Under the pieces are notes generated by a model that did not search any database, had not been told where the DNA came from, and worked only from the letters and a program-made list of their open reading frames with translations. The position numbers and the translations under genes were made by a program. A stretch of 64,000 bases of DNA from a virus: the IMG/VR virus record IMGVR_UViG_3300045988_175607, positions 47,956 through 111,955 of that record; one strand, 5' to 3'. Of the stretch, positions 1 through 28,383 are shown piece after piece. How positions within the stretch are numbered: the stretch's first letter is position 1; every line of letters begins with the position of its first letter.

Positions 1-2334
1 ACCATATAATTGAATATTAGGAGCTGTACTTACAGGGCCTAATAATAGACCTCCACTGCCATTATTATAAACACTAGGAAAAATTGATGTAAATCTTGTG
101 CCGCAAGTATTAACAATAGGATATTCCCACCATTCAATACTAAAGTCTTGAGCACATAAATCATAAGGTTCTAATGTTATATAATTTCTATTATCAATAT
201 AATAAACTGAATTATGATTTTTTGGAAATGCTGTCGCAACATTGGCCACATTAGGTTCAACAAATTTCTGTGTAACAATATCAAAAAGTCCAATTACGCC
301 ATCAGATATTCTTTGTACAGGGAAGAAATCAGCAACTTTGTTATCATCATTATAGAAAGTATAACGATAGATAATTTCTTTATGATAAATAATAGTGTTG
401 GCAGTTCTATAATAACCACCCGCATAAAATACACCAGTATCACTTCCTGCAGAAGCAAAAGTAAAAGAGGAGTTTACTAAAGAATCATCAACAGTATATT
501 TGCCATTTTTTAAATCTAATACATGATGATGCATACCATAATCTGCAGTTGCTGTATCTCTAGAAATATCATATCTGCCATCTCCAAATACATAATTACC
601 ATTACTTGCAATACCAAACCAAACAGTATAATTAGAACCGCTCAACTAAATACCGCTGCATTTCATTAAATCACTTGTTGCATCAGGAATTGCAATATCA
701 GCTTCAATTTTATAAGTTGAATACGCGCTCGAAAGGACTGCATTTTTTAATTTAAAAGCGCATTTTCCTTGTGTATCTATCGCCGGAATTTTTTTATATC
801 CTTCTGGTATATTTGCAGTTACTGCCTAAGTGGGCGCCATAATACTACAACCAACATTAGTTACTGCATGACTATGTAAACTCTCATCTTTAAATTCTTT
901 GCCTAATAAAACAAATTCATCATCAGCATCGCCACGAGGTAAAGAATCATATTCCTCGCCATTATTTAAATAACGAGTTGTTTTAGGTGTAAAATTAGAA
1001 GTCCAAACTGCAAAATCAGAAATGCGAAATTCATCCATATTACCAGTTATAGAAGGCGTAGAGCTAGTGCTACTTATGGTAAAATATGACGCAGCAATAA
1101 AATCACTAACTTCTTTAAGAGTTTTAACCAGTGTGCCGTTTTTAAAAACTAAAAGATTTGATTTATGCCTAACAATAGCGTGATGCACCCAAGTATTACG
1201 AATTACAGCACTTCCTACTGTTCCATTTAATACATCCCAAGAAGAGCCTTTGCGAGTTGCATAAAAGCATAAATTGGTACCAACTTGATAACACCCCATA
1301 AAACTAGTGCCTCCAGTTGGCCCCATTTTAAAAGAACAGCTTGTTGTACTATCTTGTCTATATTCCCACCAATCAATCGTCCAATCATCTGTTGCAAATT
1401 TAGGTAAAGTAGAAACATTATTTATTGTTATTGCATTATTTGTTGAAGTAAACGCTAATGTTTTATTGCCATTACTAAGTGGCGATGCAAATGTAGAAAT
1501 AAAAGGCGTTGTTATTGATAATGTTTGATTATATTTAGAAACATCAACTGGTGAAGTACCCGCAGTATTAGGTCTAATTAAAGCACGGCAGTGCCCTAAA
1601 AAAGTATCGTTTTGTTTCTTTTCATGATAATCAACATCAATATGTTTAGTTTTTGAAAATAAATCATTAATTACATATTTATTAGTTATTTCAGACCAAC
1701 CACTTGACGCTTTTTGATAAACTTTTTTGGCTTTTACCCATTCGCCCTAATGATTTTTTACAACTATAGAACCTTCCGCAAGAGTATAAGAATCTTCAAA
1801 GAAGGGAATATTTTCATCACACCATTCTCTTGTAGGCTCATTTCCAGCACCAAAAGATTCGGTTAAGTCGATTAACATTATATCATCTAAGTATATGATA
1901 CTTGATGTAGCTGCATTTATCGAAATGCGCAATTTTATTGTAGTGTTTGTAGATATAGTGGCTATACGTGAATGCCGATACCAAATTTTCTCTTTTAAAA
2001 TATTTTTATACCAAGCATTATTAATATTGTAATTAATATTTGTGTCACCGCTCAAATACCAACTTCCTGTAGAATAACTTAAACTTACACTTGACGCAAA
2101 ATTTGGACTATGACAAGCAATGTAAAAAACATGGTCATCAACAACTGGTGTAATAATATAATCATTTGATGGAGGAAAATCAAAAACATTATTGGTAGTT
2201 GCTTTTTTAGTTGCTAATGATACATTTCCGCCCAAACTTATATCTGTATTATAGATATAATTTGTTGAAAAAGTAAAGCTTTTATTTTCAAATGAAGAGT
2301 CTTGACAAAGATTAATCAATTTAATTGCTGCCAT
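1..2334 (-). CDS. Giant tail-fibre-like protein, 5' part (more than 778 codons, continues beyond the window start); N-terminal CBM4/9/22-like carbohydrate-binding module
   Basis: Track ORFs 1747..2334 and 826..1326 are in the same frame and separated only by TAG (1747, 826, about 640); hand translation stays open to position 1. N-terminus MAAIKLINLCQDSSFENKSF... resembles the CBM_4_9 start motif; the IDLTESFGAGNEPTREWCDENIPFFE motif is shared with three other genes. Start ATG 2334 overlaps the upstream TAA (TAATG). Confidence 0.55.
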
Positions 2335-2564
2335 TATTCAGTAGCTTCAGTAACAATAAAAATGTCACCTACTTCTCCTATATCTGTTGGAGGCTCTGCA
2401 ACATTACCAAAATAAACATTTCTAAATGTTATAGAGCCATCTACTTTAGCACCTTTAACATAAGCCACTTTCCCTATCCTTAAATCACTTGCTGTTGCAT
2501 TTGAATCACTATAATCAAATAAAACAGTACCATCCATTATCGCTTTTTTATAATTTTTAGCCAT
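2334..2564 (-). CDS. Hypothetical small structural protein (76 aa), TAG-free
   Basis: Complete ORF; SD AAAGGAG upstream of ATG 2564; TAA stop at 2334-2336. Confidence 0.6.
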   Translation of the reverse strand: MAKNYKKAIMDGTVLFDYSDSNATASDLRIGKVAYVKGAKVDGSITFRNVYFGNVAEPPTDIGEVGDIFIVTEATE

Positions 2565-2579
2565 AATTTCACTCCTTTA

Positions 2580-3002
2580 TCACTTTGTAGTAATAGTTAA
2601 TATTGTATAACCATCACTATCTGTTGTTTCAGTTACTCCATAAACTTTAGTACCTTTAATACCCAAGAGTGTAACAGTTGAGGGCATAGACGCCGGATCT
2701 AGTCCATCCACAAGAGAGTTTACAGTTATAGGAGAACCATCATAATATCCAGCAGGCATAGTAATATTAAAAACCGCATAATAATTGTTTCCATTTTTTA
2801 CTGCGGTTGGCAATAATACGGCCGTGATCTCACTTGCTTGAATATTATGTGCAGTGCCTATTACTTTACCATTTGGGCCATACGCACTATAACCTTCGGG
2901 CAACATATTTGAATTAGTTAAATTAACATCTTGAGTATTAGTAGGGCCTGCAAGTATATGCATTCCACTAATATTTTGATTACCTAAATAAACTTTACCC
3001 AT
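2580..3002 (-). CDS. Hypothetical structural protein (140 aa), TAG-free
   Basis: SD AGAAGGTGG then ATG at 3002; TGA stop at 2580-2582. Confidence 0.6.
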   Translation of the reverse strand: MGKVYLGNQNISGMHILAGPTNTQDVNLTNSNMLPEGYSAYGPNGKVIGTAHNIQASEITAVLLPTAVKNGNNYYAVFNITMPAGYYDGSPITVNSLVDGLDPASMPSTVTLLGIKGTKVYGVTETTDSDGYTILTITTK

Positions 3003-3005
3003 AGA

Positions 3006-3966: not shown

Positions 3967-4040
3967 CTCCTTTCTCGTCAAATTCACTATTATTATATAA
4001 ATTTTTAATTAATTCCATTATTTTAATTCGGCCGTATATA

Positions 4041-4070
4041 AAAAGAAAAAGGGAAGTTAAAAACTTCCCC
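4041..4070 (-). terminator. Rho-independent terminator hairpin (GGGAAGTT/AACTTCCC) plus T-tract on the minus strand
   Basis: Perfect 8-bp stem directly downstream of the TAA at 4083; A-run 4041-4050 on plus gives the minus-strand T-tract. Confidence 0.55.
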
Positions 4071-4082
4071 TATAAATATATA

Positions 4083-4889: not shown

Positions 4890-4959
4890 AACTCATTTTC
4901 CTCCTTTTTATCTTCTATAAATATCTCTTTTTTCATTAAAACATATTAATAAAAAATGT

Positions 4960-4998
4960 CCATAGAATAAAAAAGAGGGAGAAAGCTATTCTCCCTTA
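4960..4998 (-). terminator. Terminator-like hairpin (GAGGGAGAA/TTCTCCCTT)
   Basis: Inverted repeat downstream of the TAA at 5005 with a flanking A/T tract. Confidence 0.45.
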
Positions 4999-5004
4999 TT
5001 TTTA

Positions 5005-5601
5005 TTATAAATCAATCCAACTTAAACTCTCAAGCGCAGCTATACGAGCATAGATTTCTTCTTCTTTATCAGCTAAATAATTACTAGCTTCTAAATCTTT
5101 AATATCTAACCCATATAATACTTTACCTTTTGTTGGCCGAGTGCTTAAATTGTAAGTAAAATATCTTGGATTTTTTTCATCTAAAACCTTATTAAGTTTA
5201 TAAAATCTAAATGAAAAAGTAACATCGCCGGCATACTTAGTTGCTTCGCCTCCAATAGCCCAAGGAATAAGCATTTTTGGCGAGTCAGGGTCATTATAAG
5301 TGGTTACGTCATAATATGGAACGGCATATACCCGCGATTCCCCACCAGCATTTATATATTGTATTACACAAGTTGTAGTAGCTAAATCGATATTATCAAA
5401 AAATCTATCTACAATAAAATATAAACATTCTGCCCTATGATCTTTCTCCACACTTAAAAAATCTGGCACTTCAACAATTCTTTTGTTTAAGTCGATTTTA
5501 TAAATGGGTTCACTACTAGGGAGTAAAACTGCCAAGGTGGGAGGATTTACATCATAAATCTATGATAAATATTTTTCATATTCCGCGGCAGTTGTTATCA
5601 T
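5005..5601 (-). CDS. Hypothetical structural protein (about 198 codons, 1 in-frame TAG)
   Basis: Track ORF 5005..5535 extended upstream through TAG at 5560 to ATG 5601, preceded by SD AAGAGGT; TAA at 5005. Confidence 0.5.
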
Positions 5602-5619
5602 TGTTAGTTACCTCTTTAA

Positions 5620-7434
5620 TTAGATTTGTGCAACTTTGAAGAGTAAGCTATAAGTAGGTTCAGATTGGCTGCCATTAAGATTATTAATAATTTTAACATA
5701 ATAATAACCCGACACTTTAGCATTATAACGAATCGCGAGATCGGTAGTTTGAACAGCTTCAGGCAATAAAGCTTCATCATTCTCATGGGGATGTTGTTTG
5801 CCAGTTTCTGCATAATCATTTTTATAATCACATTTATACCACTGGTAAGTATATCCATCAGTTACAACACCTGAACTTAACGTTACTTCTAAGGTAGCTG
5901 AACCATTTTCCATTTCAATTTCGGCCATACCGCCCTCAGAAGCAGGCAAAGGCTTCACGATAACGGGTTTTGCAGCTGGCTTGGTAACACGGCAAACCTC
6001 AGACTGTGTAGTTAATTTACTATTATTTAAATGATTAGTAACAATTACACTATAGCTACCTTCTTCATTTGCAGTATATTCATTTTTAATAGCGTTTTCA
6101 ATAAGATTTTCTTTAGAATACCATTGATAACTAAGTTCACCACCGTCAGGACTTTCTGCAAGACAAATTAATGATATAGGAGTCATGTCTGCATCAAATA
6201 ATGAACTTGTGGGGAAGCTCTTTATTACTGGTTTGCTTGCGGCAGGAACTACGCATTTAGTGGTATCTATCGTATCAGAGCTAATCTGTACACGATTAGT
6301 AACAGTGGCAAAATAAGTACCAGTCTCAGAAATGGTACAAGCATAGAACCTTTCATAATAAGTATTTTCAGGAATCGGATCACCATCAGTAACTTCTGCG
6401 ATTTGATAACCTGAAATATTCTCATTATTTTCAGCTTTAATATAATAAGCTTTACCCTAAGCAAAAGTACCATCATTACTCAGTACATATTCATCAGGCA
6501 GAACCGTAAGCTTGCTATCAGCACTGGGTACAATATGACCATTTTGCATATGAGTCCAAGAGATGGAGATAACTCCCGCGTCTTGGCTTTCAGCTTGTAT
6601 CCTGAGTGTTTGAGATTGATGATCTCTTTCGCCTTCAAGATTGATTGTTTCAGGCAAATCTTCAAATAATACAGGTTTTTCCGCGGTTTGACCACCAACA
6701 GGATTAGTATCAACAAAGCGGCTAAGGATTAAATCATTACGATCAATAATCTCTATTGCGCTATCATCTTCTATATCTAAGTCAAGAGCAGGATTAATTA
6801 CTGCACTTGCAGTCAAAGTACTAAAACTATAAGTAATTTTAGGCTTTTCTTCATTGGTTTTACTAATAAAACGCACAGAAAATTTAATTGTGCCTGCGCG
6901 ATCAGTAATTTCAGAAGAAATAGGCCAACCAAAAATAATCTTACCAGGCTTGCTTATAATATCGCGCACCCAAGGAATAGAAACGTTCTTTTCAGTAATA
7001 CCTTTAGCATCAGGCGCAGTTTCCCACTATATATAAATTTCTTTAGTATTTAAGTCAGTAGCATCAAAATAGCGATCAATTTCAAAATAAAGTATTTCGG
7101 CAATTTCATCGCCTTTTACTGATATACCATTCTTTTTAAAACTGGGAGGTACAGTAATAGTTCTTGTATTTGCATCAATCAAAAATACTTCTTCGTCTAC
7201 TGGTAAAATAGTATATTTAAATTGTCTATTTTTTGAAGGGTCATAAGCTGGCGAATTATTAGAAGTATCATCATGGTCATATTTAGCTAATTTAGTAATA
7301 TAACCAAAATAATCTTCTAAAGTAGTGATTTCCGCACCATCTTGCATTTCATTATGTTTTTTCAAGATTTTATTGGCCTCTTCAAATAACTTACGATATT
7401 TAACAGTATTTTCACTATTTACATAAGTAATCAT
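5620..7434 (-). CDS. Structural protein with Ig-like (Big_2-type) repeats (about 604 codons, 3 in-frame TAG)
   Basis: Track ORFs 7027..7434, 6457..6969 and 5620..6186 share one frame and are joined only by TAG; SD + ATG at 7434 with TAA just upstream; TAA at 5620; repeated YQWY-containing segments separated by KPAAKPVI linkers. Confidence 0.5.
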
Positions 7435-7463
7435 TAGCTTTTAACTTCCTTTCTATTAAAATT

Positions 7464-7493
7464 GTGAGTTAGGAAACGAATTTCCTAACTCAC
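7464..7493 (-). terminator. Perfect 13-bp hairpin GTGAGTTAGGAAA-CGAA-TTTCCTAACTCAC
   Basis: Lies between the gene ending at 7510 and the start at 7434; T-rich flank. Confidence 0.45.
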
Positions 7494-7509
7494 TTTATTT
7501 TAATGTTTT

Positions 7510-7719: not shown

Positions 7720-7730
7720 ATTTATTCTCC

Positions 7731-10700
7731 TTATATTACTTTAAAGTTATATGTAACTCCAACACTTGCAGTGGTAAGACCAGTAAGATTCGGCAAATAA
7801 TCATCTGATTCTGGCGCACTATACTTATTAATATGCTCCTAATCAGAATACATATTTACTGTTGTAATTGTGCGGTTAGGAGGATTCTAGAAAAGCACTC
7901 TATAGTTAGTAGAGCCAGAGCGCATACTAGTAATATAACATCCTTTTTCAGAATCGCCAAAATTAAATGTTGATATCTTGGTTTGGAAAGCAAATGCCGA
8001 TTGACCTATAAATTCAAAATGTCCAGTAATAGTAAATGAATCATTATCAATGGGTGAACCACTAAGTGCGTAGTTATCAAAGCGACACACCTTATCTGGA
8101 TTAATATCAATACGACTTAATCTTAATATTGGTATATCAACGGCATTATTTTTACGTATTGAAGCCATACAATACGCACCAAAGCGCTCTATAGTGCCAG
8201 GAACTTCAATATACTATAACTAGCCCATACCCTCAAGACAACGAGGCATAAAATCAATGACGTTTGTTCCAGCAGGGTCTTTATACCAGAAAATATGTGT
8301 GATATTGTTATTGTTTCTAAAACCATTAACAAGACTTGAATTAGTATCACCATAAATACCAATAATGGGCTAATTGTTATGACGAGTTGGCAAAGTTATT
8401 TTACCAGATAATGAATATTCAGATTTAATGCTGATGTAATAACCATTTTGTTCACGATATGTTCCAGAAGTGAAATCAAAAAATTTCTCATCAAAAGGCG
8501 CATCATAGACATTTGCTATTTCATAAACCGCATAGAATTTATAATCTTTAATAGATCTCATAGCCTCTAAATCAACCTTGCGGCCGCCCTTACTGGTTGA
8601 ATAGCCGACGTGTTTATAAGTGCTTTCAAGGGGTAGAGTTGATTCGTCTTTATGAGGAATAATTGTGGGAGGATAAAGCTTTTCATTATAAGTGACTTCT
8701 ATCTCATCGATTAATGAATCATCATCATTATAAAAAGACATTTTATACTTATGCTTAATATAAATAGCATAGAAAGTATAATCTATCACACCCTATGTGC
8801 AAGACCATTCTTCCCATTGTTCATTAGTGATAATATTATTACCTGCTGCATCAGTTGCCCAACCGAGGAAATCATAATTGGGCTTTGGCTTTGGTGTATA
8901 AGTGGTATAAGGATTAGAGAACCGCACAATTGTACCACTTTCAAAATCATCAGCCGCAATTTTCTATATGCCAATAATATTTTTCTTACCATCTTCATCA
9001 ATCTATACAAATATACCAGAATAACCTTGCTTTACATTTGTAAAGAAGAAATTAAGATTGGGATAATAATCATTGCTCTATAAAGTATTGCGAATATATC
9101 CTTCATCAATTACGTCATTATTCTCAATATAAATATAACCAGTAATTTCAGGCATTGAAGTCGCAGTACCTTTGAATATATTGCTATACTTTTCGATGTA
9201 ATCTTTTAACATATCTACATTGGCAATAGTCTCATATTTATTGGTAACTTTCTTAAATAATTTTCCATCAATAAGTAAGTTATTCCATTCAGAAGCATCC
9301 CAAGTCCAAGTTTCTAATCCATAATGGCCATTATCTTTGTAGTATTCCTCAGAAACATTATAAGTATAACCCTCAGTTAATTTTTCATAAGGCATCCAAT
9401 TAACTCCACGCAATGAAATTTGCAACTAACCTTGATTAGGAAGAAGCTTGATACGAGTTAAAGACTTTAATAATTTATAACTATCATAACCAAAATAATC
9501 ACCATTAATGCTTAATACATTTAAACCAGTTTCAGTCGCAGTATCTAAATTATTAGTTAAATCTTCAATATATAATCCCGTTGGAGGAGTCCAAGTAGAG
9601 AAATTCTCTTCTGTTGGAGGCTCATAAGAAACAATCAAATCTTTTAACTAAGAAGCTTCAACCAAATTAAGATTCGTTAAAGTCTTAGGAATATGTAAAG
9701 TATTAAGAGCAACACCTTCTGCAAATACAATATTCTAAATATTAGAGCGTACTGCACGGAAAGATTGTAATTTCTCACTGCTGGAAAAATCTAATGTTTG
9801 TACATTTTCAATAAATACACCAGTAAGATTTACCTCTTTTAACATTGGTTTACCTTTTGCACTGCTCTTAGAAGCATCAAAACTGGGTGGATTCGTTTTT
9901 AAGAAATAGCCCGGATACTCTGAACCAAGTAAAAGTCTCTATAAACGAGAAGCTCCTAACGCTCTAAACTCTCGCCAATATAAAGTGCTCATATCACCAA
10001 CATCTTGTAAGAAGCTTGCGCCATAAATATAGAATAACTGTTCACCATAATTGGCACCACTACGACGTCCTATAGGCATGTTACCCGGTAATTGCATATA
10101 AACAGCTTTGTCACCTTTATATAATTGCGGTTCCATTGAGCTATTATCGCCACCAATAGTAACATATTGCCGTTGATAAGGAATAATCTTTACTGCTAAA
10201 TCAGCATCCAAATAATTAGTTTTTATTGGGTTGCCATCGGCATCTTTTTTCTCTGTGCCATTTTCTATAACATAATATGGCGAATATTCAAAACCGGCTG
10301 GTAATGTCGTAGTATTATTATCGATCCATTTATCTGAAGTTTGATTTATATCGTTAGCAATAATACGACCTTGAATTGAGGCACCCGCACGTGCATATTC
10401 GCCCCAGCCCTAAAATGAATCATAAAAATTAATACGATTCATTAAGAATTGCTGACGAGATAAACTACGATCACCTTGTAATGCATAGAAATAAGTACCA
10501 TCACCATCAATCGCAATATCACCATCTTGATTCTAATAACCATCTCCATCGGGATTGGTAATAGAAATATATTTCCAATATTCATCCAAATTCAATGCCA
10601 TTAAAGGACGAATACCTCTCATAGCAATAGAATTACATTCAACAGGGTCGGCTAAGTACCATTTTTCAATATGATCAACATCTCGCTATAAAGCAGAACG

Positions 10701-17382: not shown

Positions 17383-17408
17383 TGATTAAATATCTCCTTT
17401 TAGTTAGA

Positions 17409-18137: not shown

Positions 18138-18202
18138 TGAAATTCACTCCTTTTCTTTTTAAATTCTTCACCTAATAGTCAAATTTACTGTTTATTAATT
18201 AA

Positions 18203-18233
18203 AACGACTTGGCCTTATTAAGGCCAAGTCGTT
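18203..18233 (-). terminator. Perfect 14-bp hairpin AACGACTTGGCCTTA-TT-AAGGCCAAGTCGTT
   Basis: Immediately downstream of the TAA at 18244 of the giant fibre gene and upstream of the 18137 start. Confidence 0.6.
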
Positions 18234-18243
18234 CTTATAAAAA

Positions 18244-21200
18244 TTAAGCTTTGTTTTCTAAAGCGGCAATCCTTTGTTCTAAACTATTTATTTTATTCCA
18301 CAAACGTTTAATATAATTGTTTAAAGTAGCTTCGCCAGTAGGCTCAATAATACTATCAGTAGTTTCATTGGCGTAGCCTTTAACTACACTTGAACCAATA
18401 TCAGCGCTTATACCTTTAGTATACTTATGCTTGCCAATAATATGACCAGCTTCATCATATTCTATATCATATAATACAGGTTCTTCTGTATTGGGCTTAT
18501 CACTTGTATCAACTACAGAAATCTTATGTGCAACCTATAATTGATCATTAACTGTTCGTGGTAATGTCCAATCGCTTTGATACTCTTGTATACGACTTAA
18601 CCACATTGTTTTTTCTGGGTCAGCTAAAGCATTTGCTTTAGTTTTTAATTCTGCCGCATTAGTTAACTCTAAAGTACCTTCAGCAAATGTTGCACCGAAG
18701 CCTAATAATTCATTATAATAGTGCGGTTCGCGCTTGCCGCCATCAGGAACAAACACACCTCTTAATTGAATCCACTTATTAACTGAAGTTATTTCTAAAG
18801 GTTTCTATGTTGAGGTAGTCTTAAGTAAACCGCCTGAAACCATACTGCCACGCACCGGCACTTCCTCAGCAATTGGCGAGCTATATATCGCGCTATTCTC
18901 TGGAATCGCAGTAAATATATCGCGTGGATGACTGGTCTCATAAGGATTATTATCTCCGCGTGCAGTCACACTATTTTCGAATTCAGCTATCCAAGATAAA
19001 TATAAATTATATTCAGTCTCAGTAAGATTGCCATTATTTTTCTCTTCAAGCCAAGCCGCAAGTAAAGCGTCTTTATTTTCTATTACTTTTGGATTATCAA
19101 GATTAAATATAGCACCTTGATAAGAAAGTTCAAGCATCCTACTAAAATAAGGCTAATAATTTAAATTATTAATTACTATGTCTTTAAAATGAGTAGGCAA
19201 TGGCGCAATCTTATTTTGTTTACCAACTACATGTCCAGTTTCATCAATAAGATAATCACGCAATAAAATAGTACCATTATATTTATTATCAGTATAAGCC
19301 ATGTTATAAAGGTCATAAACATTAGGACTATTTTCTAATGAAGGTTTAATATCTTCAAGTTTGTGATAATTGTGATGAATGCTTAAAATATTATTATTTT
19401 TATCATTATTAATATTAACAGTAATCCATTGTTTATTAATCATAGCTGGATCGCTATAATCATGTTTATAAATATCTTGGTCAATAATATCATCACTGTC
19501 ATTTTCAAAAGTATAAGTAGTTTCAAAAAAGGGAATATTTTCATTACACCATTCTGCAGAAGGCTCGTTTCCAGCACCAAATGCCGATGTTAAATCAATT
19601 AACATCATTCCATCTATATAAAAATCTTTAATGCTACAAGCAATAGTAAGAGAAGTTGATACAACATTCTCTTCCTATAATGCACTCGGTTCATAAATAT
19701 ATGTTTGAGACTACCAATCATCTATATCAGTTTTTTTACCCGTCATTTCTATAAGCTTAAACTAAACTATTTGAACATTATTAGAATAATTAAGACGAAA
19801 ACTTACTATGCTACCTGTTCCATATGAATTAGTATAACAAACAAAACAATATTTATGATTTAAAAAAACCTAAATATCTTTAGAAGGTGTTAAATATATA
19901 ACATTATCTTCACTATCTTTTACTCTTGTGAGTGAAGTTTCTCCAAAATATTTTTTTGAAGAATCATATTTAGCATTATTGCTGAATGTCCATGCCTTAT
20001 TTTCAAATGATGGATCGAAAATAAGATTAGTTAAAGTAACATTTTTTGTTACAACAGGCTCTTTAGTAAAATTAATGCTATTACTCTAATCAGTGCTAAT
20101 TTTAGCACTAATTATTTTACCAAACTGATCAACCGTCAACAGTGATTTAGGAGTAAGTGTATCGAATGTATTTAAAATATCATTCATCAAATTAATGCAA
20201 CCCTAAACTGTTTTATTATCACGAGATGTTTCATTATCAATCTCTAATAACGCATTTAGTTTAAGAATTAATCCATGAATAGTATTCAGTCCATCAGCAA
20301 ATCCAACCAATTCACTAAATTCATAACCCATCTATTGGCCTATTAATGATAAACCATCAACAACTACTTTATAATCAGTATCCCATTTTTGTCCAATAGT
20401 GTAGTCATAATCATATTCTTTAGAACCATCAATTGCTTCAATATAATAATTGACATCATCAATAAATTCATAATAATACTTTTCTTTAGTGTCTGCGCGG
20501 TTTTCACCAACTAAAAGCCCCTTAACCGCAACAATACTAGTCCAAGCTTGACCTAAAGGATAATTAGTTTTTAAAGCTGTCTATTCATCAGCATTTAAAT
20601 CAGTTAAATCATAACCAACAATCTGATAATTAATACCTTCCTCTAATACATATTCATCTCTATCAAGCGCGGCAATGGGGGAAGTTGCAAGAGTTAAACC
20701 TTCAATATAAGTTTTATTGGCAGTATCCCAGATTTGACCAACCTGATATTGCTTTTTAAAGTTTTCAAATTCCTCTGTGGGCATACCAGCACTATTTTCA
20801 ACTTGAGTAATTTGATAAATAATACCATCGCGGAATACCCATTCGCGCTCGTAAATTGAACCAATTAATGTAAGTTCAGTTTGGCCCTCTTCATAATAAC
20901 CCAAAACAATACCATCAATAAATTCTCGACCATAAGGCCAAACTTCATGATTTTCATAAATTGAACCATACTTTTCTTGAAGCTCTTGAATTTTTTCTTC
21001 AGTAAGGCTTGTGCCACTACCAATTTCTTTAGCTATATAATAATCAACACCATCTTGCATATTATAATATAACTTCTAATCGGTTGCAGCAACATATTGA
21101 GATAATGTGACACCAGGAACTACTTTATCTCCTTCAGTCCAGATGTCTCCAATAACGTATTTTTCTAAAAGCTCATCAATATCTTCTAAAGCAGAAATTT

Positions 21201-23157
21201 GATATTGAGTCCCAACAGCCATATCATAACGAGACACTTGAACAACTTCAGCGACGCTAGATGCCAACTAAATACCCTACCGCACTTTTGTATCACTAAT
21301 AGACCAAGCAGTACCAACATTTAACCCACTTGTGCCAGCATCAACAATATAATATTTTTTATCAGGCTTAAAAATGTAAGATAAACTAGTCTAATCACTA
21401 ATTGTTACATCAATAATATCAGGCGCAAGAACAATACCATCTATTACATCAGTTAATTCAGTATTCCACTTTTGTCCTACTTTAAAATGCTGATTAATAT
21501 AAGTGGCCTAATCTTTGTCAAATTGCGCATTTGAACCATCTTCTAAATAAGCAATATAATAATTACGTCCAGGTTTAAATACATATTTACCATCTACAGA
21601 AGCAACTGTTGTAAGTAAACCTTCTTTATATCTTTTAACTAAGTCAGTATTACGAATACGATAATATTTTTGATTCTGATAATAAATTTTATCTAAATCA
21701 ATATTATTAAAATCTTGTAAATCAATATGATTATCGTCATTAGTAACAATAATCATACCCATTAAATCATGTACTGAATTAATACAACCCGCAAGAGTGT
21801 TAATTTTATCAGTATCATAGCTATATCCATTACCTTCTGGATTAATACTTACAAGACGTAAACCATTTTTATTATCCCAATCAACATTAAGATTACGATT
21901 CAAAGAACCATTCTATTCTTCTGAACCATAAACTAAATCCCAAACATGAGCTAAAGTATTACCTAAAGAAGGCAACATAACGCTAATTTCTTGAGTATCT
22001 TCACTCACAGCTAAACGATTAGTACCATCATGTTGGTTATATAAATGACCACTATATCCAGTAGGCTCAATAGAAATTTTATCTGTTATATTTTCATCAG
22101 CATAAGAAATATGTTCAGGGTCAAAGCCCGCTTTATTGTAATAAATCGCGGCGGGAATCTTACTTTCTGCGGTTTGCCACTATTTGGTTTCCGCATTAAA
22201 ATACTGCTTTTGGCTTGTATTATTTTCAGTATCCATCTTAATTTGAGACCAAGAAGTTTCTTCATCAGAAGGATAATCTTTTACATCATTAGTCAAAATA
22301 GTAGAATTAGTAAATAATTCACTTTTATTACCATTCTCATCAAGTACTGGGCCAGTAAATTGTTCAGCACCTTTAATCCTTAATCCCCATGAAGGCTACC
22401 AATGTAATTGATAAAATTTATTGGTGCTGTCAGTATCAAAGTGCGGCGCCATAGGTACAATACTTGGTGCATCCGCGGAAATACCAAGTGCAGGCATCGT
22501 GGAATTAAGTTCCGCAATCATTATATATTGTTCTTTATTATCTTTATAAACCTTTTGCCAAACGGTAGAATCCCAACCGCGCCCTTTACCATAAATAGAA
22601 GTATCTAAAGCATAATTACGCACATAAGCAGAATTTGCACTGGTTAAAATAGTAAACACAGATTGACCATTTACCAATTTAGCTTGATAATAAAGAGTCG
22701 TAGAACCGTTTAATGTTCCAATATCAATAGGTTCGTGCGAATCAGTTGATGTATTATAATTAAAACGCTCAGTAATTTTACCATTTTTATCAGTAACAGT
22801 TGCTGGAACGCGCACTACATCGCCTTGCCGCACTTGACAATAATTTAAACTTACTGTTGAACTGGGTACAACCTCTAATTCATATGCCGCAGGAAACTCG
22901 ACTGCGCCATCAAGCACTTCTTGAATACTTGCGCCCTCTTTTTGTTTAAAACTTGCATATAGCTTACCATCGGGTGCTAAATAACAAGATTTAAAACTAT
23001 CATCGCTACCTTCAGAATCATATTCCACTAAAACCAAACGATTTACATAAATACCATCAGTCTTAATATTATGATCCATTTCATAGCGGCTAGAATAAAT
23101 TTTATCAAAATTGAACTGGGCGCGGTCTAAATTTACCACTTTTCCATAAAAACTCAT
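18244..23157 (-). CDS. Giant tail fibre / receptor-binding protein (about 1637 codons) with internal CBM-like module
   Basis: Track ORFs 22396, 21508, 21076, 20581, 19153, 18805 and 18535 all have mod 3 = 1 and are joined by TAG; ATG 23157 is preceded by TAA; TAA 18244; internal ...FDPSFENKAWTF... and IDLTSAFGAGNEPSAEWCNENIPFFE. Two junction stretches were not translated by hand. Confidence 0.45.
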
Positions 23158-23529
23158 TTAAACCGTTTCCTCCTCATCATCTTGATTATAAACTATATCA
23201 ACAATTAAATAAGCACTATCATTGGAAGATATAGAAGTTATAGAAGAAGCATCAAATGAAATTGCAGTAATTTCACTCAATCCCTCTAAATCTAATTCAT
23301 AAATTCCAGTAGCACCAATAATAATTGGATTATCCGCATTATTTAAATAAAACTTAGTCCCTGGAACCGTCTAAATGCCCAATTGTGTTATGGGCAAATA
23401 GGCGGAAAAAATACTACCAGAGGTAAGTTTAGCTTTAGTAATTGCGCCAGATATTCCGCTAGTTCGATTTGGCTAATTCTCTAAAGAACTATCATTATAA
23501 TAGCGGAATTGCATTACTTTTCTTGCCAT
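23158..23529 (-). CDS. Hypothetical small protein (about 123 codons, 2 in-frame TAG)
   Basis: SD AAGGAGGATAAGGAGA + ATG 23529; hand translation runs to TAA at 23158-23160. Confidence 0.45.
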
Positions 23530-23547
23530 TCTCCTTATCCTCCTTAA

Positions 23548-26500
23548 TTAATAAATTCGATCAACTACTTTAGTTGCTTTTATATTCATTAATCCATTAT
23601 GAGTTAATGGTATTGTTAAGGTTTGAATATTATACAAACCATTAATTTTACTTGTTTCATCGTATATTGAAATCTAAGTGTTAGGTTCTAATGTATATAT
23701 AGGTATTGCATTTACAGTTACAGACTCAACACAATAGGAATAATTATATACCATATTGTCTATAACTGAATGCGCATCTTTTCCTTGTGCGCTAATACTA
23801 AACATATTTTCATATTCAGCATTTAAATATATATAACTATAACCATCTCTTATTTCTCCTTGCGCTTTTAACTCATCATACTAATTTTTATTAGTTAAAA
23901 AAATCACCGTAGGAGTTTCTCTATAATAGATGGCCGTTACCTTATCATCATTAATTGCTTTAGGCCTATCTCCAACTATATTAATAGAATACTTCTCTAA
24001 ATCATCACCGTCTAAGAAATCTAACCAATAATTTAAAACTTCAGGAGCATTAACCACATTTTTATTCCAATAATATAATGATTTATCAACGCCGTCAATA
24101 GGCTTATAATATTGGCAAGTTTTAGTATAATATGAACGATTTTTCTTAGGCTCATAAATTACAATATCTTCAATTCCATCTTGAACAAACACATTTTTTA
24201 AAGCTTGCTACGCCGCATAATCTTCTACGGTTTCAATTACTTTATAAACACTATATTCAGTCGGCACAATTTCATATCCTGATAAAGTTGCAGTAGATTC
24301 TTTAAGATAATATCCCTTAGTAATTTTACAGAAAATGATATCTTCTCTGCCCCATACCTCATCATCTTTTGGATTAGTATGGTTTACTTCTGGATAACGA
24401 TAATAGGGAGATATCACTTTATCTTTTCTGAAAGAATATAAGCCATTTGCACCTTTACTCATAACCGCAAGATATTCCTTAAGAACAGCATCGTATTCAT
24501 AAATATCAGTATATTCAGAAAAAGTTTGATGATATCCATCAATATAATGGTCAGTTTTCTCATAATAGATTTTCTTAGAATCATATATACTATCTTCAGT
24601 CAATTTTAAAAACTTATCATCTATATTTACATCTTGATAAATGTAACAATTATGAGTTTTCTTTGCATTGACTAAACTATTATCACTAGTAACTAAAGCG
24701 ATATTGGGATTATCATTTTCTGGTATAAAAAAGCCATAAGTATTTTGAAAATGCACTTCTTGCCCATTTATATATTCTGTATATTCGGTATTATAAGAAC
24801 CATTTAGCGCATAATAATATAAAGGTTCAAGCTCCTCTTCTTCTTCTGCATCTGCAAAAATATAAATATTTTCGTCAAATGGAATATTTTGATTACACCA
24901 ATCTAAATTAGGCTCTTGTCCCGCGCCATATTTACGAGTTAAATCTATCATAACAAAAGGTGCAACTAAGCCATTAGCACCGTCAGTATTTTCAGATAAA
25001 GTGGTGATTATAAATTTAAGCGCATCATAATCTTTTAAAGTAAAAATATTCGCATATCGGAACTAATTTTCTGATTCTTTAAATTGCGGGAACCATCCTT
25101 TGCTATGATCTGAAATAACATTTGCATATAAACCCTATAAAATTCTAAATATTGTAGCAGAAGCATAGGAATGTACTGCAATATAATATTTATGAGCTGA
25201 AGAAATTTTTGCTTGTTTATTTATTTTATGAAAAGTATATTCACTCTCAAAATAAGGAATATTTGCATCACACCATTCTCTTGTAGGCTCTTTACCCTCA
25301 CCAAAAGCTTCAGTTAAATCAATTAATATTATATCATCTATACAAATAATACTTGATGTATTTACACCTATTCCAAAATTAAATTTAGAAATATGGCTTG
25401 TAGATCCAGTAATTAACTTTGAATGTCGATACCATTTTTTTTCCAAATGCCTTCCATACCAAGTATTATTAATATTATAATTAATATTTGCCGCTCCATA
25501 GTTATAATATATACCATTTATAAGTTGAGTTATTTTTACACTTGACGCAAAATTTGGACTGTGACAAGCGATATAAAAAATATGATTTTCAATATTTGGT
25601 GTAATTATAACGTTGTTTGATGGTGGAAAGAAAAAATCCTCATAAGTTTGCTCTTTTTTAGTTGTTAATGAAACATTTCCACTCAAACTTAAATCTGTAT
25701 TATATATAATGCTAGAATCTTCTAAAATAAAGCTCTTGTTTTCAAAAGAGGGGTCAGGAGCTAAATTAGTTAAAATTATATCATTAACTTCTTCTTCCTT
25801 CTCATCAATATTTATATAATCTAAATTAGTAAAATACATATTAGTACGCTATACGTAAACATTATCATATTGCAGGCATAATGCAAACATATTGCTATTA
25901 GTAATTTCAACTAATTTATTCGGCTCATCAGGATATAAATATTTTATTTTTTCAATATAGCCCAATTTATTGCCTTCAGACCAATCGCTATCATAATTAT
26001 CATCAAAAAATCCAAAAGCTTCAGAAACCTCAATACTAAAGGGCCGACACCAATAAGTCTAAACAAAATTATTCCAGATTTCTTTTGCAGATTTTCTAAA
26101 TGTATTATATATTTCTAACTAATGAGAACGTTGTTCTAAATTAAATACAGCTTCTTGCATAGATAATATTTTTTTCTTAACCTTATTATCTAACTCAGTC
26201 TATACTTCATAAGTTGAATATTTTTCATCTGCGCAATTAATTCGACGAGATTCATATCCCACTTCAGGCTCTAATGAAGTTGCTCTATCAATAATTTCAG
26301 GAGTTATTTTTACCGCATTTGGCCACATTGGTTTATAAGGCAGCAAATGAACAAAACCAGTAGATTGACAATAATGTTTTTTGTCTTTATAACAATTACC
26401 AACCTATTGATAATCGCGCACATAAGAAAAATATAATTCAGAAAAATTACCATCTTCTGTTTTTATATAATACTTAGTACCAAAATCAACTGGATGAGTC

Positions 26501-28383
26501 ATTGCCCACTGATACCAATTTCCTTCAGAATTATCAGATTTCCAATATTCGGCAACTTTTTCATTTTTATACTAATCAAAAGCTAAACCTTCATAATAAA
26601 TGCCCAATATTTTTCTGTCATCAAATTCATCTTGTGGAATTTTAACTTCAAGATAATCATAGCTCATCATTCCATTTTCATCAACTATTGGAGCATAAAT
26701 GGGACGAGTTAAATCATCTATAACTTTAATCGGCGTTCCTGTTAATGGTGAAATCATAGATTCATAAGTAACTTCAGCATAAGGATCATATAATTCTCGC
26801 CAATAACTCATTAAATCAGTATAAAACATTTCATATCCAGTACTTCCAAAAGGAAACAAATCTTTATCTTCTGGGTAAATACGATTAGCTTGCCGCACTC
26901 GCGCAAAAAAATCATCCATAGTTCCATATTGATAAAAATCGCGCGCCATTTGATATAAAATTTCTCGCCAATCCCAATCTTCATCAGTATAAGTGCGATG
27001 ATCTTGAGATTTATTATTGCCATATTTTTTTGCTTCTTCAGCATTAACTGCAATGGTTGTATATTCGGTGGGCTTTTTAGCAATAGCATATCGCATATGT
27101 ATGGGAATTTCACCACCGCCAACGCCTTTGCGAATACCATGAACAAAATAATCATTTTTCATATTCGCAATATTGGGAGAATTATTAAAAGAAGTGATTA
27201 AAGTACCATTATCAAAAGAAAATTTATAACAAGATTCATAGCCAGTCTATTTAAAATAAGTCTCGTTATTACTAGAACCCGTACCATTCCAAGGGGTATT
27301 AATAAAAGTTTGTTTTTTCTAAAAAATAAAAGTACCATAAACATCATAATAATATTCATAATCACCAAGAACTTTAACTATTTTATCTAATTGCGCAGTT
27401 ACGCTTTCTCCAGGATTACAAATAAAATCATTAGGATAAACCAAATCAGTGGGACGATAACCCGCAGTTTCACCATATTGGATTCGCGCAATTATGTATT
27501 TATCACGCTCTTTACCATGCTAAACCATATCTTTATTTAAAAGATATACTTTAGTTGGAATATTTATTTCTTTATCATTAAGAGTATCAAAAGTATAATA
27601 TTTAATAAAATCTTCTAATTTTACTTCTCGCTCAATTTCATTACCTTCAGAATCTTCGTCAATTGCATAAACAATCTAAGAACCATCAGTACTCATATTT
27701 TCATAATAATTGCCCTAAGAACTTAAACCATCCCAATACTTTTTAAATAAATATAAAGGAGTGTCTCCACGATACTCTAATAACTCAATACCGTTATTAT
27801 CGACATCATTAATTAATATATTCTAAATTGGTTCTAATCCATAAGTATGAACTAAATCAAAAATAATTCTTTTAAGTAATCTATCAACTCGAACTTCCTT
27901 ATTTAATTCAATATCATCATAAATAAATTGTCCAAAATTTACAGTCTATCCAATAGTACCACCAATACCACCATTTAAAAGACACATTTTATCTTGCCCT
28001 TGAATAGACATAGTAAAATTATTTAATGCCTAACTGGTAGAAAGTCCTGTGATAACATAGATTCCTGCAGGAAACCAAACTGTTTCAGGAAAATTTTCTG
28101 TATCAATAAAATTTTTTAATCCAATAGACAAAGAAAACTTGGTATGTAAACCCCAATGGAAAGCATTAATATCCATATCAGTCGTAACCAATGATAGATT
28201 ACATGTGCGGCGAACCGCTGAAGTACCATTAATATTAATGGTACCTCCGGTTACTCGTCCTTGAATTTCTTCAAGACAATGTATTTCATCAAAAGATAAT
28301 AAAATGATTCGCGCAAAAATTTCACGTTCTGTGTAAGTAAATAATTTATTTAAAAATTCTTCATTTAACAATGGATCAAACAT
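23548..28383 (-). CDS. Giant tail fibre / receptor-binding protein (about 1611 codons) with two tandem CBM-like modules
   Basis: Track ORFs 28030, 26572, 25135, 24208 and 23881 all have mod 3 = 1; the junctions 25840-26571 and 27163-28029 were translated by hand and contain only TAG; ATG 28383 overlaps the upstream TAA (TAATG); TAA 23548. Two copies of the ...DPSFENKSF... / IDLTxxFGxGxEPxxxWCxxNIP module. Confidence 0.45.

What the first reader, a model, noticed from the sequence alone, without database searches (positions are those of the whole stretch)
1..28383. Family of CBM-like receptor-binding modules repeated in at least three giant fibre genes, with nucleotide-level repeats
- The module is about 230 aa. 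It starts with ...L(T/I)NL..DPSFENK(S/A)(F/W)... (reminiscent of CBM_4_9/CBM22 starts) and ends with IDLTxxFGxGxEPxxEWCxxNIPFFE.
- It occurs at the N-terminus of the gene 1..2334, once inside 18244..23157 (about 19560-20050) and twice in tandem inside 23548..28383 (about 25135-25839 and 24208-24951 onward).
- Copies are similar at DNA level. For example 2081-2200 vs 25541-25660 at about 80% identity, and GGCTC(A/G)TTTCCAGCACCAAA appears at 1840 and 19567.
- This suggests modular polysaccharide-binding receptor-binding domains exchanged by recombination, a possible route to host-range variation.
Basis: partly seen in the sequence, partly recalled or inferred. Interest (0 to 1): 0.65.

Follow-up and report, generated by a model that had tools for sequence, protein, structure and literature searches.

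The report
Swappable sugar-binding-like module in phage tail genes
Three large tail genes of an uncultured gut phage that reads the TAG stop codon as glutamine carry copies of one previously undescribed, carbohydrate-binding-like domain, and close relatives of the phage have swapped, patched or deleted it, as expected for a host-recognition cassette.

Summary
With TAG read as glutamine, the window encodes three large minus-strand tail genes. They carry three complete copies (about 188 aa) and one N-terminally truncated copy of one module: nt 1765-2334, 19489-20055, 25210-25794, and the partial copy at 24835-25224.

The module defines a large uncurated family: 1,287 cluster representatives at E<=1e-10. 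Its hallmark is a near-invariant C-terminal cap, DLTxxFGxGNEPxxxWCDxNIPYF.

Six related assemblies (84-99% identical in the neighbouring protein) show three states at the 18244-23157 slot: the window's unique variant, a second variant in five assemblies (10-40% identity inside 90-100% identical flanks), and a precise in-frame absence. Cap sequences are also shuffled between paralogous slots.

So the fold class and exchange by recombination are supported. Sugar binding, receptor binding and host-range effects remain inference. Most of the DNA-level similarity is what protein conservation plus AT-rich codon bias would give. This is a new variant of a known kind.

The parts
1..2334 (-). Gene g1. 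Its 3' part is cut off by the window edge, so 777 codons are visible. It has 3 in-frame TAG codons. The module is at the extreme N-terminus, and a Laminin_G_3 (ConA-like lectin) domain lies at aa 298-442 (nt 1009-1443).
   Evidence: ORF seen only with TAG read through. A stop codon lies immediately upstream of the ATG. Pfam PF13385, E 3.7e-10.
1765..2334 (-). Module copy 1 (g1 aa 1-190), complete. It was the query for both AlphaFold2 models.
   Evidence: Profile hit E 7.5e-56. Models with pLDDT 74.8 and 77.3, pTM 0.75 and 0.78. Fold matches CBM16, CBM22 and CBM4.
18244..23157 (-). Gene g18244 (1637 aa, 19 in-frame TAG). One module is inserted at aa 1035-1223. The region aa ~525-990 holds degenerate repeats of about 55 aa.
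   Evidence: The N-terminal 471 aa have no relative in deposited phage genomes.
19489..20055 (-). Module copy 2, 'variant A'. Among the 7 related genomes compared, only the window has it.
   Evidence: Profile hit E 9.7e-34 to 2.7e-41. Orthologues are 10-40% identical here against 82-100% in the flanks. One relative (L002) lacks exactly this segment.
19224..20197 (-). Window-specific divergent tract: the module plus short flanks. The core, 19494-20107, is at most 77% nt-identical to every relative, while the relatives are 90-100% identical to each other there.
   Evidence: Sliding nucleotide identity. This was the only break in collinearity with L001.
23548..28383 (-). Gene g23548 (1611 aa, 19 in-frame TAG). 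Its N-terminal domain is a conserved tail-protein domain. It carries module A followed by the truncated module B.
   Evidence: phrog_32343 at aa 9-150. tblastn hits to phAss-1, Enterococcus EF1/VRE9 phages and a Thomasclavelia phage 'tail protein'.
25210..25794 (-). Module copy 3, 'g23548-A', complete. It is 59-60% aa and 69-73% nt identical to copy 1. It evolves faster than the rest of its gene.
   Evidence: dN/dS 0.16-0.35 against 0.05-0.14 for the rest of the gene.
24835..25224 (-). Module copy 4, 'g23548-B'. It is N-terminally truncated (profile positions 60-179) and keeps the GHxYY-type strand and the C-terminal cap. It is conserved in all relatives under strong purifying selection.
   Evidence: Profile hit E 3e-14 to 6e-16. 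Present in all six related loci. dN/dS 0.05-0.11.
1798..1872 (-). C-terminal cap motif of copy 1 (IDLTESFGAGNEPTREWCDENIPFF). This is the DNA-level repeat unit.
   Evidence: Its amino-acid sequence is identical to the g23548-A cap of relative L002, with 89% nt identity.
19525..19599 (-). C-terminal cap motif of copy 2 (IDLTSAFGAGNEPSAEWCNENIPFF).
25249..25323 (-). C-terminal cap motif of copy 3 (IDLTEAFGEGKEPTREWCDANIPYF). It carries the EAFGEG signature of the variant-B module that sits in the g18244 slot in five relatives.
   Evidence: 91-92% nt identity to the variant-B caps against 88-91% to its own orthologous caps. The signature residues are EAFGEG here and ESFGKG or ENFGKG in the orthologues.
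24874..24948 (-). C-terminal cap motif of the truncated copy 4 (IDLTRKYGAGQEPNLDWCNQNIPFD).
36280..45867 (-). Context: the tape measure protein (3195 aa, 53 in-frame TAG). It places the module-bearing genes in the tail-tip part of the structural operon.
   Evidence: Pfam PhageMin_Tail PF10145 at aa 197-403, E 1.2e-28. Gene order.

Best explanation
The window is the tail-gene region of a large siphovirus-type phage that uses TAG as a glutamine codon. It is related to the phAss-1 group and to large Enterococcus, Lactococcus and Bacillus siphoviruses, and its host is probably a member of the Clostridia.

Three large tail-tip proteins each display a plug-in domain of about 188 aa. The domain is a CBM4/16/22-type beta-sandwich. 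Its framework is conserved (LTNLxPDPSFE, HxYY, W...S, DGxMLIDL) and the stretches between are highly variable. It is closed by a family-specific, near-invariant cap of about 30 aa with two short helices (TxxFGxGNEPxxxWCDxNIPYF).

Shown here:
- the repeat, the fold class, the tail-gene context and the size of the family;
- that among near-identical phages one slot holds either of two very different variants, or no module at all;
- that cap sequences have moved between paralogous slots.

Inferred:
- The modules are surface-glycan adhesins that help the tail tip recognise host cell-wall polysaccharide.
- Homologous recombination replaces whole modules, using gene flanks and the conserved framework and cap DNA, and non-allelic gene conversion patches them.
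- This changes adsorption specificity.
For: Genetic code and genes: (TAG aligns with CAA or CAG at 131 of the 163 aligned positions where only one of the two sequences has TAG).

Repeat.

Sequence bridge: 8 of 44 family modules hit PF02018 CBM_4_9, best E 3.5e-7. One family member carries a precomputed PF02018 annotation.

Family: 3,182, 1,287 and 265 cluster representatives at E<=1e-3, 1e-10 and 1e-30. The module is N-terminal, internal or C-terminal, and 38 proteins carry two copies. The strict cap motif is in 188 of 203 fetched proteins. Partner domains are adhesion or tail domains: Flg_new, Laminin_G_3, ALK_LTK_GRD, Sipho_Gp37, CBM_4_9, LRR_5, F5_F8_type_C, GDSL, Prophage_tail. Two sampled contexts are phage tail regions.

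Tail context in the window: tape measure protein, tail tube, conserved tail-protein N-terminus of g23548.

Exchange:
- The g18244 slot holds variant A in the window, variant B in L005, L006, L007, L008 and L011, and no module in L002. The L002 junction is precise and in frame...EPPKIN|CFSKDSDD....
- The variant-B cap is 64/69 nt identical to the g23548-A cap of the same genome, although the module cores cannot be aligned. Codon sharing is 47 against 37.1 expected, P=0.008.
- The window's g23548-A cap carries the variant-B signature, and L002's g23548-A cap is identical in amino acids to the window's g1 cap.

Faster protein evolution of module A: dN/dS 0.16-0.35 against 0.05-0.14 for the rest of its gene.
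Against: - No binding or host data exist. Ligand, receptor role and host-range effect are inferred from fold and context only.
- The window copies do not reach any curated CBM model.
- dN/dS stays below 1, so relaxed constraint cannot be told apart from diversifying selection.
- Variable sites in module A are only mildly enriched in predicted loops: 29 of 95 against 19 of 95 in secondary-structure elements.
- Cap-shuffling inferences rest on short 75-nt segments.
- At least one family member is a membrane-anchored protein in an ordinary bacterial chromosomal context, so the module is not phage-specific.
- The module was not found by tblastn in 50,697 deposited phage genomes, so no characterised phage protein anchors the function.
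Confidence: 0.6

Rival explanations
1. The module is structural rather than adhesive. It could be a spacer, an oligomerisation or docking domain, or a decoration domain of the tail tip. The near-invariant cap would then contact another virion part. The variability would reflect low constraint on an exposed scaffold, not selection on ligand binding.
For: - The cap is the most conserved element across thousands of otherwise very different modules, which fits a protein-protein or intradomain packing role.
- The truncated copy B is under strong purifying selection even though it lacks the N-terminal strands.
- dN/dS is below 1 everywhere.
Against: - The module occurs N-terminally, internally and C-terminally, in very different proteins, and in a bacterial membrane-anchored protein. 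A single conserved virion partner is therefore unlikely.
- One relative does without the module in the g18244 slot, so it is dispensable for assembling that protein.
- The best fold matches are ligand-binding CBMs and receptor-binding domains.
Confidence: 0.15
2. The module is a small jelly-roll enzyme, such as a polysaccharide lyase, hydrolase or esterase, that degrades a capsule or wall polymer. The invariant His, Tyr, Trp, Ser, Asp and Glu residues would be catalytic.
For: - Invariant polar residues H68, Y71, S122, D156 and E166 sit in an otherwise hypervariable domain.
- One family member weakly matches Pfam Polysacc_lyase-like (E 9e-4).
- Tail-associated depolymerases are common in phages, and the phAss-1 relatives carry pectate-lyase domains in their tail fibres (PMC10607447).
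Against: - The top structural matches are all non-catalytic CBMs of 140-175 aa. Jelly-roll lyases and GH16-type enzymes are not among the best hits.
- From my recollection of the CBM_4_9 signature, the invariant residues fall on its framework strands (N-terminal xxFE, the Y-rich strand, W...S, and the C-terminal DxxxL strand). This was not tested here.
- The sandwich is too small for the known lyase folds.
Confidence: 0.08
3. There is no exchange. The copies are old intragenomic duplicates that diverged in place. The differences between genomes are ordinary divergence, and the DNA-level similarity is merely a by-product of conserved residues and AT-rich codon usage.
For: For most copy pairs the number of shared codons at identical residues is only slightly above the codon-usage expectation: 40 against 34.7, 34 against 28.4, 15 against 17.0. 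The longest exact DNA matches are short, 9-25 nt.
Against: - Genomes that are 87-92% nt identical across 20 kb differ by a block of 43-57% nt identity exactly at the module, or by a precise 172-codon in-frame absence of the module.
- The relative that is 99% identical in the neighbouring gene still carries the other variant.
- Cap signatures do not follow orthology.
- Codon sharing exceeds expectation for g1 vs g23548-A (79 against 61) and for variant B vs g23548-A (P=0.008).
Confidence: 0.05
4. The variability is produced by a diversity-generating retroelement (DGR) acting on the module.
For: DGRs are common in gut phages and target tail-fibre ligand-binding domains (general knowledge). Only 64 kb of a roughly 175-kb genome is visible here.
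Against: - The self-BLASTN of the window lists no match of the module's variable stretches to any other place in the window, so no template/variable repeat pair is seen there. The only DNA repeats lie in the conserved part, not the variable part.
- Variants differ by unalignable sequence and indels, not by substitutions restricted to adenine positions in a fixed-length tract.
- The fold is a CBM-type sandwich, not the C-type-lectin or Ig-like DGR target fold.
- Presence of a reverse transcriptase gene was not examined in the window's ORFs.
Confidence: 0.02

Closest known systems
CAZy/Pfam CBM_4_9-type carbohydrate-binding modules (CBM4, CBM16, CBM22; e.g. PDB 2zew, 1h6x, 4bj0)
   Different: The window copies match no curated CBM model. 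Sequence identity to solved CBMs is about 12%. This family adds a near-invariant C-terminal cap of about 30 aa (TxxFGxGNEPxxxWCDxNIPYF) that I did not find in Pfam, PHROGs, NCBIfam, PDB sequences or the literature library. It sits in phage tail proteins, not in glycoside hydrolases.
CBMs that decorate Dit, Tal, neck-passage and receptor-binding proteins of siphophages of Gram-positive bacteria (lactococcal 936/P335 phages, Streptococcus thermophilus phages, Bacillus phage Deep-Purple; PMC6669499, PMC7533335, PMC7291167, PMC9128512)
   Same: The same concept: accessory carbohydrate-binding modules inserted in several tail-tip proteins of one virion, downstream of the tape measure gene, in phages of Firmicutes. 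They are thought to increase or tune adhesion to cell-wall polysaccharide.
   Different: This is a different sequence family. It was not found in any of 50,697 deposited phage genomes by tblastn. The host proteins are much larger (1,600 aa), and the phage recodes TAG. Here there is a natural allelic series (variant A, variant B, none) among near-identical genomes.
Mosaic adhesins of T-even phages (gp37/gp38: hypervariable segments delimited by conserved His-box or glycine-rich motifs) and the VR2 host-specificity region of S. thermophilus phages flanked by collagen-like repeats (from my own knowledge; not checked in the paper library)
   Same: Short conserved motifs bracket hypervariable ligand-binding segments and appear to act as recombination points. 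Segments are exchanged between paralogues and between phages.
   Different: The fold and motifs are unrelated. Here the conserved elements are the framework and cap of a CBM-type domain. The best-documented event is replacement or loss of the whole module.
phAss-1 group of TAG-recoded gut siphoviruses (PMC10607447)
   Same: TAG read as a sense codon in structural genes, a tape measure protein of about 3,150-3,200 aa, predicted Clostridia hosts, and tail-fibre architecture differing between close relatives. The tail tube is 53% identical and the g23548 N-terminus 33% identical to phAss-1.
   Different: The phAss-1 fibres are described with pectate-lyase domains. The module studied here was not detected in phAss-1 or any other deposited phage. 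The genomes of this lineage are larger, about 162-175 kb.
CBM-like domains in solved phage baseplates and fibres (Staphylococcus phage phi812 'CBM-cenC domain' protein 9euf_8, Pseudomonas phage Pa193 gp46 9b45_v, mycobacteriophage Douge gp20 8zdp_v, CBA120 TSP4 5w6h)
   Different: Only 8-16% sequence identity. They lack the cap motif. There is no evidence of family membership.

Membership tests
Pfam CBM_4_9 (PF02018) / CAZy CBM4-9-16-22 type modules | Sequence match to the curated family model | tested here: not met
   The whole proteins and the isolated window module give no CBM_4_9 hit even at E<=1. Only 8 of 44 family relatives hit, best E 3.5e-7, and one has a precomputed PF02018 annotation. 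This points to a distant relationship, not membership.
Pfam CBM_4_9 (PF02018) / CAZy CBM4-9-16-22 type modules | Beta-sandwich (jelly-roll) fold superimposable on solved CBM4, CBM16 and CBM22 structures | tested here: met
Pfam CBM_4_9 (PF02018) / CAZy CBM4-9-16-22 type modules | Binds a carbohydrate ligand | not testable with these tools
   Needs binding assays or a ligand-bound structure.
Adhesion-device CBMs / receptor-binding modules of siphophage tail tips | Encoded in the tail-tip gene block downstream of the tape measure gene | tested here: met
   The tape measure protein (PF10145, E 1.2e-28) is at 36280-45867. The module-bearing genes follow it on the same strand. The g23548 N-terminus is homologous to tail proteins of other Firmicutes phages. 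For g1 the link is by position only.
Adhesion-device CBMs / receptor-binding modules of siphophage tail tips | Domain-level variation between closely related phages while the rest of the protein is conserved | tested here: met
   There are three states at the g18244 slot in 7 genomes. dN/dS is raised in g23548 module A.
Adhesion-device CBMs / receptor-binding modules of siphophage tail tips | Present on the virion and binds the host surface; determines adsorption | not testable with these tools
   The phage is uncultured and its host unknown. Needs proteomics, cryo-EM and adsorption assays.
The uncurated 'capped CBM-like' family defined here (alignments A2 and A4) | Significant match to the family profile over most of its length | tested here: met
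   E 7.5e-56 (1765-2334), 3e-57 (g23548 module A; 25216-25788 in the A2 scan, 25210-25794 in the A4 scan) and 9.7e-34 (g18244 module; 19492-20049 in the A2 scan, 19489-20055 in the A4 scan). The partial copy (24841-25224 in the A2 scan, 24835-25224 in the A4 scan) scores 3e-14 over profile positions 60-179. The first two copies were used to build the profile, so their scores are partly circular. The other two were not.
The uncurated 'capped CBM-like' family defined here (alignments A2 and A4) | C-terminal cap motif DLTxx(F/Y)GxGxEPxxxWCxxNIP | tested here: met
   Present in all four window copies and, in a slightly shorter form (DLTxx[F/Y/C]GxGxEPxxx followed by W-like and C-like positions), in 188 of 203 fetched family proteins.
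Diversity-generating retroelement (DGR) target domains | Template/variable repeat pair with adenine-specific differences | tested here: not met
   The self-BLASTN of the window lists no match of the module's variable stretches to any other place in the window, so no near-identical repeat pair covers the variable region. Variants differ by unalignable sequence and indels. Presence of a reverse transcriptase gene was not examined, and only 64 kb of the genome is visible.

The most novel reading that the evidence does not exclude
The near-invariant cap (TxxFGxGNEPxxxWCDxNIPYF) may be the functional core of a portable 'plug-in adhesin cassette' rather than a passive end of a CBM. It would close and stabilise a sandwich whose surface can then vary almost freely. 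Its conserved coding sequence would also serve as the crossover point that lets phages, and some bacteria, shuffle binding specificities between unrelated proteins. That would make this an uncurated, metagenome-wide system of exchangeable host-recognition units, used among others by a lineage of gut phages that read TAG as glutamine.
Probability: 0.2. Interest if true: 0.65.

Novelty: new variant of a known kind. Interest (0 to 1): 0.45.

Why it matters
CBM-type modules on phage tail tips and modular exchange of receptor-binding domains are both well known, so the principle is not new. Three things are new here.

1. A large sequence family with no curated model: 1,287 cluster representatives at E<=1e-10, with a distinctive conserved cap. 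Current annotation pipelines miss it. One reason is that in TAG-recoded phages the genes are broken into fragments.
2. A natural allelic series in near-isogenic uncultured phages: two very different variants, or no module at all, at one slot.
3. Signs that the cap sequences move between paralogous slots.

Together these give concrete, testable candidates for the host-range determinants of a poorly known group of gut Clostridia phages. They also provide a ready-made profile for annotating such modules in viromes.

Tried and rejected
- Standard-code ORF calling fragments all three genes. It was rejected in favour of TAG as Gln.
- A word-indexed homology search with the g18244 copy found nothing, probably because database proteins are split at TAG. 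The TAG-free copy worked.
It was rebuilt from TAG-free window stretches plus database hits (A2).
- Megablast of 18000-29000 against deposited phages found no match. tblastn of three different module sequences against the same collection also found none.
- A PDB sequence-profile search gave nothing significant.
- PHROGs and NCBIfam scans of 44 modules gave only scattered weak hits.
- A literature search for the cap motif as text returned 0 papers.
- Attempts to recover the full g1 gene or its orthologues failed. IMG/VR scans with the neighbouring ORF and with g1 aa 197-502 found nothing, and the exact-sequence look-up gave only a 953-bp contig.
- The AlphaFold database Foldseek library was unavailable.
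- The promoter and terminator scan of 17300-28600 was at chance level.
- A DGR was considered and rejected, as was a catalytic jelly-roll enzyme (see the rival explanations).
- Loop-versus-strand enrichment of variable sites in module A was weak and is not used as evidence.
- BLASTP did not confirm the degenerate repeats in g18244 aa 525-990. They are seen only at motif level.

Full report
**Genes and genetic code.** Under the bacterial code the region is a litter of short ORFs. Reading TAG through gives 19 ORFs of at least 300 codons (17,699 codons in all), against 7 (3,024 codons) under the standard code. Reading through TGA changes nothing, and reading through TAA gives only 17 ORFs (7,096 codons) scattered over both strands. 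All but one of the 19 long ORFs are on the minus strand; the one on the plus strand overlaps a minus-strand ORF. In alignments with orthologues from related contigs, there are 163 positions where only one of the two sequences has TAG. At 131 of them the other codon is CAA or CAG, so TAG encodes glutamine. No tRNA gene lies in the 64 kb.

**The repeat.**
- BLASTP among the window's large proteins gives g1 aa 4-185 vs g23548 aa 869-1051 (60% identity, E 1e-45) and g18244 aa 1040-1339 vs g1 aa 4-314 (29% identity, E 8e-22). A weaker second copy lies in g23548 at aa 1064-1179.
- BLASTN finds 1796-2301 vs 25247-25755 (73% over 522 nt). It also finds two shorter matches of about 110 nt at 77-80% that join all three genes at the C-terminal motif.
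- A family profile run over all six frames finds exactly four hits: 1765-2334, 19489-20055, 25210-25794, and a truncated copy at 24835-25224 that matches profile positions 60-179 only.
- The module is therefore about 188 aa, not 230, and the 'tandem second copy' is partial.
One quoted DNA pair is out of register.

**What the module is.**
- Pfam, PHROGs and NCBIfam do not recognise the window copies. A PDB sequence-profile search is also empty.
- Two AlphaFold2 models of g1 aa 1-190, built from 18 and 44 aligned sequences, have pLDDT 74.8 and 77.3 and pTM 0.75 and 0.78. They show a beta-sandwich followed by two short helices and a final strand.
- Foldseek with the second model gives the same families (E 8e-6 to 1e-3) and also the mycobacteriophage Douge central fibre.
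- In the viral structure library the matches are minor tail proteins, receptor-binding proteins, tip attachment protein J and 'CenC-like' proteins.
- There is a sequence bridge too. Eight of 44 family modules weakly hit Pfam CBM_4_9 (best E 3.5e-7), and one family member carries that annotation precomputed.
- 'CBM-like' is therefore supported as a fold class and as a distant relationship. Membership of CBM_4_9 or CBM22 is not met for the window copies.

**The wider family.**
- An exhaustive profile search of 1.84 billion cluster representatives finds 3,182 proteins at E<=1e-3, 1,287 at E<=1e-10 and 265 at E<=1e-30.
- In the 203 sequences fetched, 230 full-length modules lie N-terminally (92), internally (92) or C-terminally (41), and 38 proteins carry two.
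- The framework is conserved: LTNLxPDPSFE, GHxYY, W...S, DGxMLIDL. The stretches between are highly variable.
- The most conserved element is a C-terminal cap, TxxFGxGNEPxxxWCDxNIPYF. It is present in strict form in 188 of 203 proteins. I found it in no curated model or paper.
- Partner domains are adhesion or tail domains: Flg_new, Laminin_G_3, ALK_LTK_GRD, Sipho_Gp37, CBM_4_9, BspA-type LRR, discoidin, GDSL esterase and Prophage_tail.
- Two sampled genomic contexts are phage tail regions. One is an ordinary bacterial chromosome, where the protein has an N-terminal membrane anchor.
- tblastn with three different modules finds nothing in 50,697 deposited phage genomes.

**Context in the window.**
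- g36280 (36280-45867, 3195 aa) is the tape measure protein (PF10145, E 1.2e-28).
- The protein at 47966-48964 is a tail tube or virion structural protein. It is 31-53% identical to those of phAss-1, of Enterococcus EF1/VRE9 phages, of Lactococcus WRP3 and PMBT69, and of Bacillus phage Nate.
- The N-terminal domain of g23548 is shared with phAss-1, the Enterococcus phages and a Thomasclavelia phage 'tail protein'.
- The phAss-1 paper describes TAG-recoded siphoviruses with tape measure proteins of 3,149-3,209 aa, predicted Clostridia hosts, and tail fibres that differ between close relatives (PMC10607447).
- The module-bearing genes thus sit in the tail-tip block of a large siphovirus-type phage. 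'Fibre' as such is not shown.
- g1 also carries a Laminin_G_3 lectin-like domain.

**Exchange between genomes.**
- Six related assemblies were fetched through the neighbouring TAG-free gene 15382-17382, at 84-99% protein identity.
- L001 (a 174,861-bp contig filed as a Clostridium MAG) is collinear with window 35820-15121 at 87-92% nt identity. The single break is the core of the g18244 module.
- Protein identity along g18244 is 82-100% everywhere except aa 1041-1184, where it is 10-40%.
- Five assemblies share this second variant, 'variant B'. That includes L005, which is 99% identical in the next gene.
- L002 lacks the module precisely and in frame. The junction reads ...EPPKIN|CFSKDSDD..., and 172 codons from LTNL to NIPFFxxxY are missing.
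- At the nucleotide level the window-specific tract spans about 20197-19224. Its core, 20107-19494, is at most 77% identical to every relative, while the relatives are 90-100% identical to each other there. Identity declines gradually at both edges. This looks like replacement by a divergent allele through flanking homology.
- More distant relatives (36% identity in the marker gene) show no module within 10 kb on either side.

**Exchange between paralogous copies.**
- Codon-level tests show that most DNA similarity between copies is what identical residues plus AT-rich codon usage predict: 40 shared codons against 34.7 expected, and 34 against 28.4.
- g1 vs g23548-A exceeds that, with 79 against 61.1.
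- In L001, variant B and g23548-A share 64 of 69 nt in the cap and patches of 81-93% identity in the N-terminal motif and the HxFYIACH strand, while the intervening sequence cannot be aligned. Codon sharing is 47 against 37.1, P=0.008.
- Cap signatures do not follow orthology. The window's g23548-A cap (EAFGEGKEP...) equals the variant-B cap of other genomes, not its orthologous caps (ESFGKGKEP or ENFGKGKEP). L002's g23548-A cap is identical in amino acids to the window's g1 cap, with 89% nt identity.
- These are short segments, so each case is modest. Together they point to patchwise gene conversion between module slots, with the conserved framework and cap DNA as the likely substrate.

**Selection.** In g23548, module A has dN/dS 0.16-0.35 against 0.05-0.14 for the rest of the gene. 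The truncated module B has 0.05-0.11. Module A is therefore less constrained or partly under diversifying selection, and module B is a maintained structural part, not a decaying remnant. Variable sites are only mildly enriched in predicted loops.

**Interpretation.**
- Shown: the repeat, the fold class, the tail context, the large uncurated family with its cap, and replacement, loss and patching of modules among close relatives.
- Inferred: the modules bind host surface glycans and changing them alters adsorption. This follows the established picture of CBMs decorating Dit, Tal and receptor-binding proteins of siphophages of Gram-positive bacteria (PMC6669499, PMC7533335, PMC7291167, PMC9128512).
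- Rivals: a purely structural role, a small jelly-roll enzyme, in-place divergence without exchange, and a DGR. I judge all of these less likely, for the reasons given under the rival explanations.

**Verdict.** The finding is a new variant of a known kind. Interest is moderate, mainly as an annotation gap and as a natural allelic series for testing host-range determinants in TAG-recoded gut phages.

Noticed in passing
window 1-64000: The whole window uses TAG as a glutamine codon (genetic code 15). Reading TAG through raises the long ORFs from 7 to 19, and at positions where only one of two aligned orthologues has TAG, the other codon is CAA or CAG in 131 of 163 cases. No suppressor tRNA gene lies in these 64 kb.
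   Followed up: yes
window 15382-17382, 47966-48964, 52964-54073, 54091-54855, 52286-52882, 45979-46512 (all minus strand): A handful of genes contain no TAG codon, while their neighbours hold 10-50. They include the tail-tube-like gene and an Ala/Thr/Gly-rich 666-aa protein in a patch of higher G+C (0.40). They may be the most highly expressed structural genes, or genes expressed before TAG suppression is established.
   Followed up: no
window 18195-18241, 45902-45938, 7455-7504, 28213-28252: The self-BLASTN shows inverted-repeat palindromes of 37-52 nt at 81-92% identity. Three are intergenic: just after the g18244 stop, just before the tape measure start, and between 7434 and 7731. One lies inside g23548. 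They may be terminators or regulatory hairpins.
   Followed up: no
window about 20190-21580 (g18244 aa ~525-990): Five to seven very degenerate repeats of about 55 aa, each ending in (V/I/T)G(Q/D/T)(K/I/A)W, possibly a shaft. The same zone is mosaic among relatives: L005, L007 and L002 share one haplotype and L006, L008 and L011 another. The repeats are seen only at motif level and BLASTP does not confirm them.
   Followed up: partly
window 5005-5601 and 5620-7434 (minus strand): These adjacent genes are paralogous: 34% identity over 157 aa, E 8e-16. The larger one has weak Ig/PKD-like matches at aa 401-481.
   Followed up: no
window 1-3002: g1 and the ORF at 2580-3002 have no relative in IMG/VR, although a 162-kb IMG/VR contig (L002) is closely related across 5400-27400. 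The left end of the window appears to be a variable region of the genome. The 3' end of g1 lies outside the window and could not be recovered.
   Followed up: partly
L015 7715-8830 (protein P0004): One family member with an N-terminal membrane anchor lies among housekeeping genes (genes whose products match Pfam families of Clp-type AAA ATPase, BacA, a radical-SAM/TRAM enzyme, MscL, IPPT, poly(A)/CCA nucleotidyltransferase, DnaD and FtsK/SpoIIIE) on a bacterial scaffold. The module is therefore not restricted to phages.
   Followed up: partly
L001/L011 (JALFQD010000409.1, 174,861 bp): A contig deposited as 'MAG: Clostridium sp.' is collinear with the window's phage tail genes at 87-92% nt identity. 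It is fragmented into many short 'hypothetical proteins' because it was annotated with the standard code. It is most likely a phage genome binned with a bacterial MAG.
   Followed up: partly
window 7731-15278 (minus strand): A 2,515-aa protein with 28 TAG codons has no Pfam match at E<=0.001. It lies downstream of the module-bearing genes and is conserved in all close relatives (2,534-2,541 codons).
   Followed up: no
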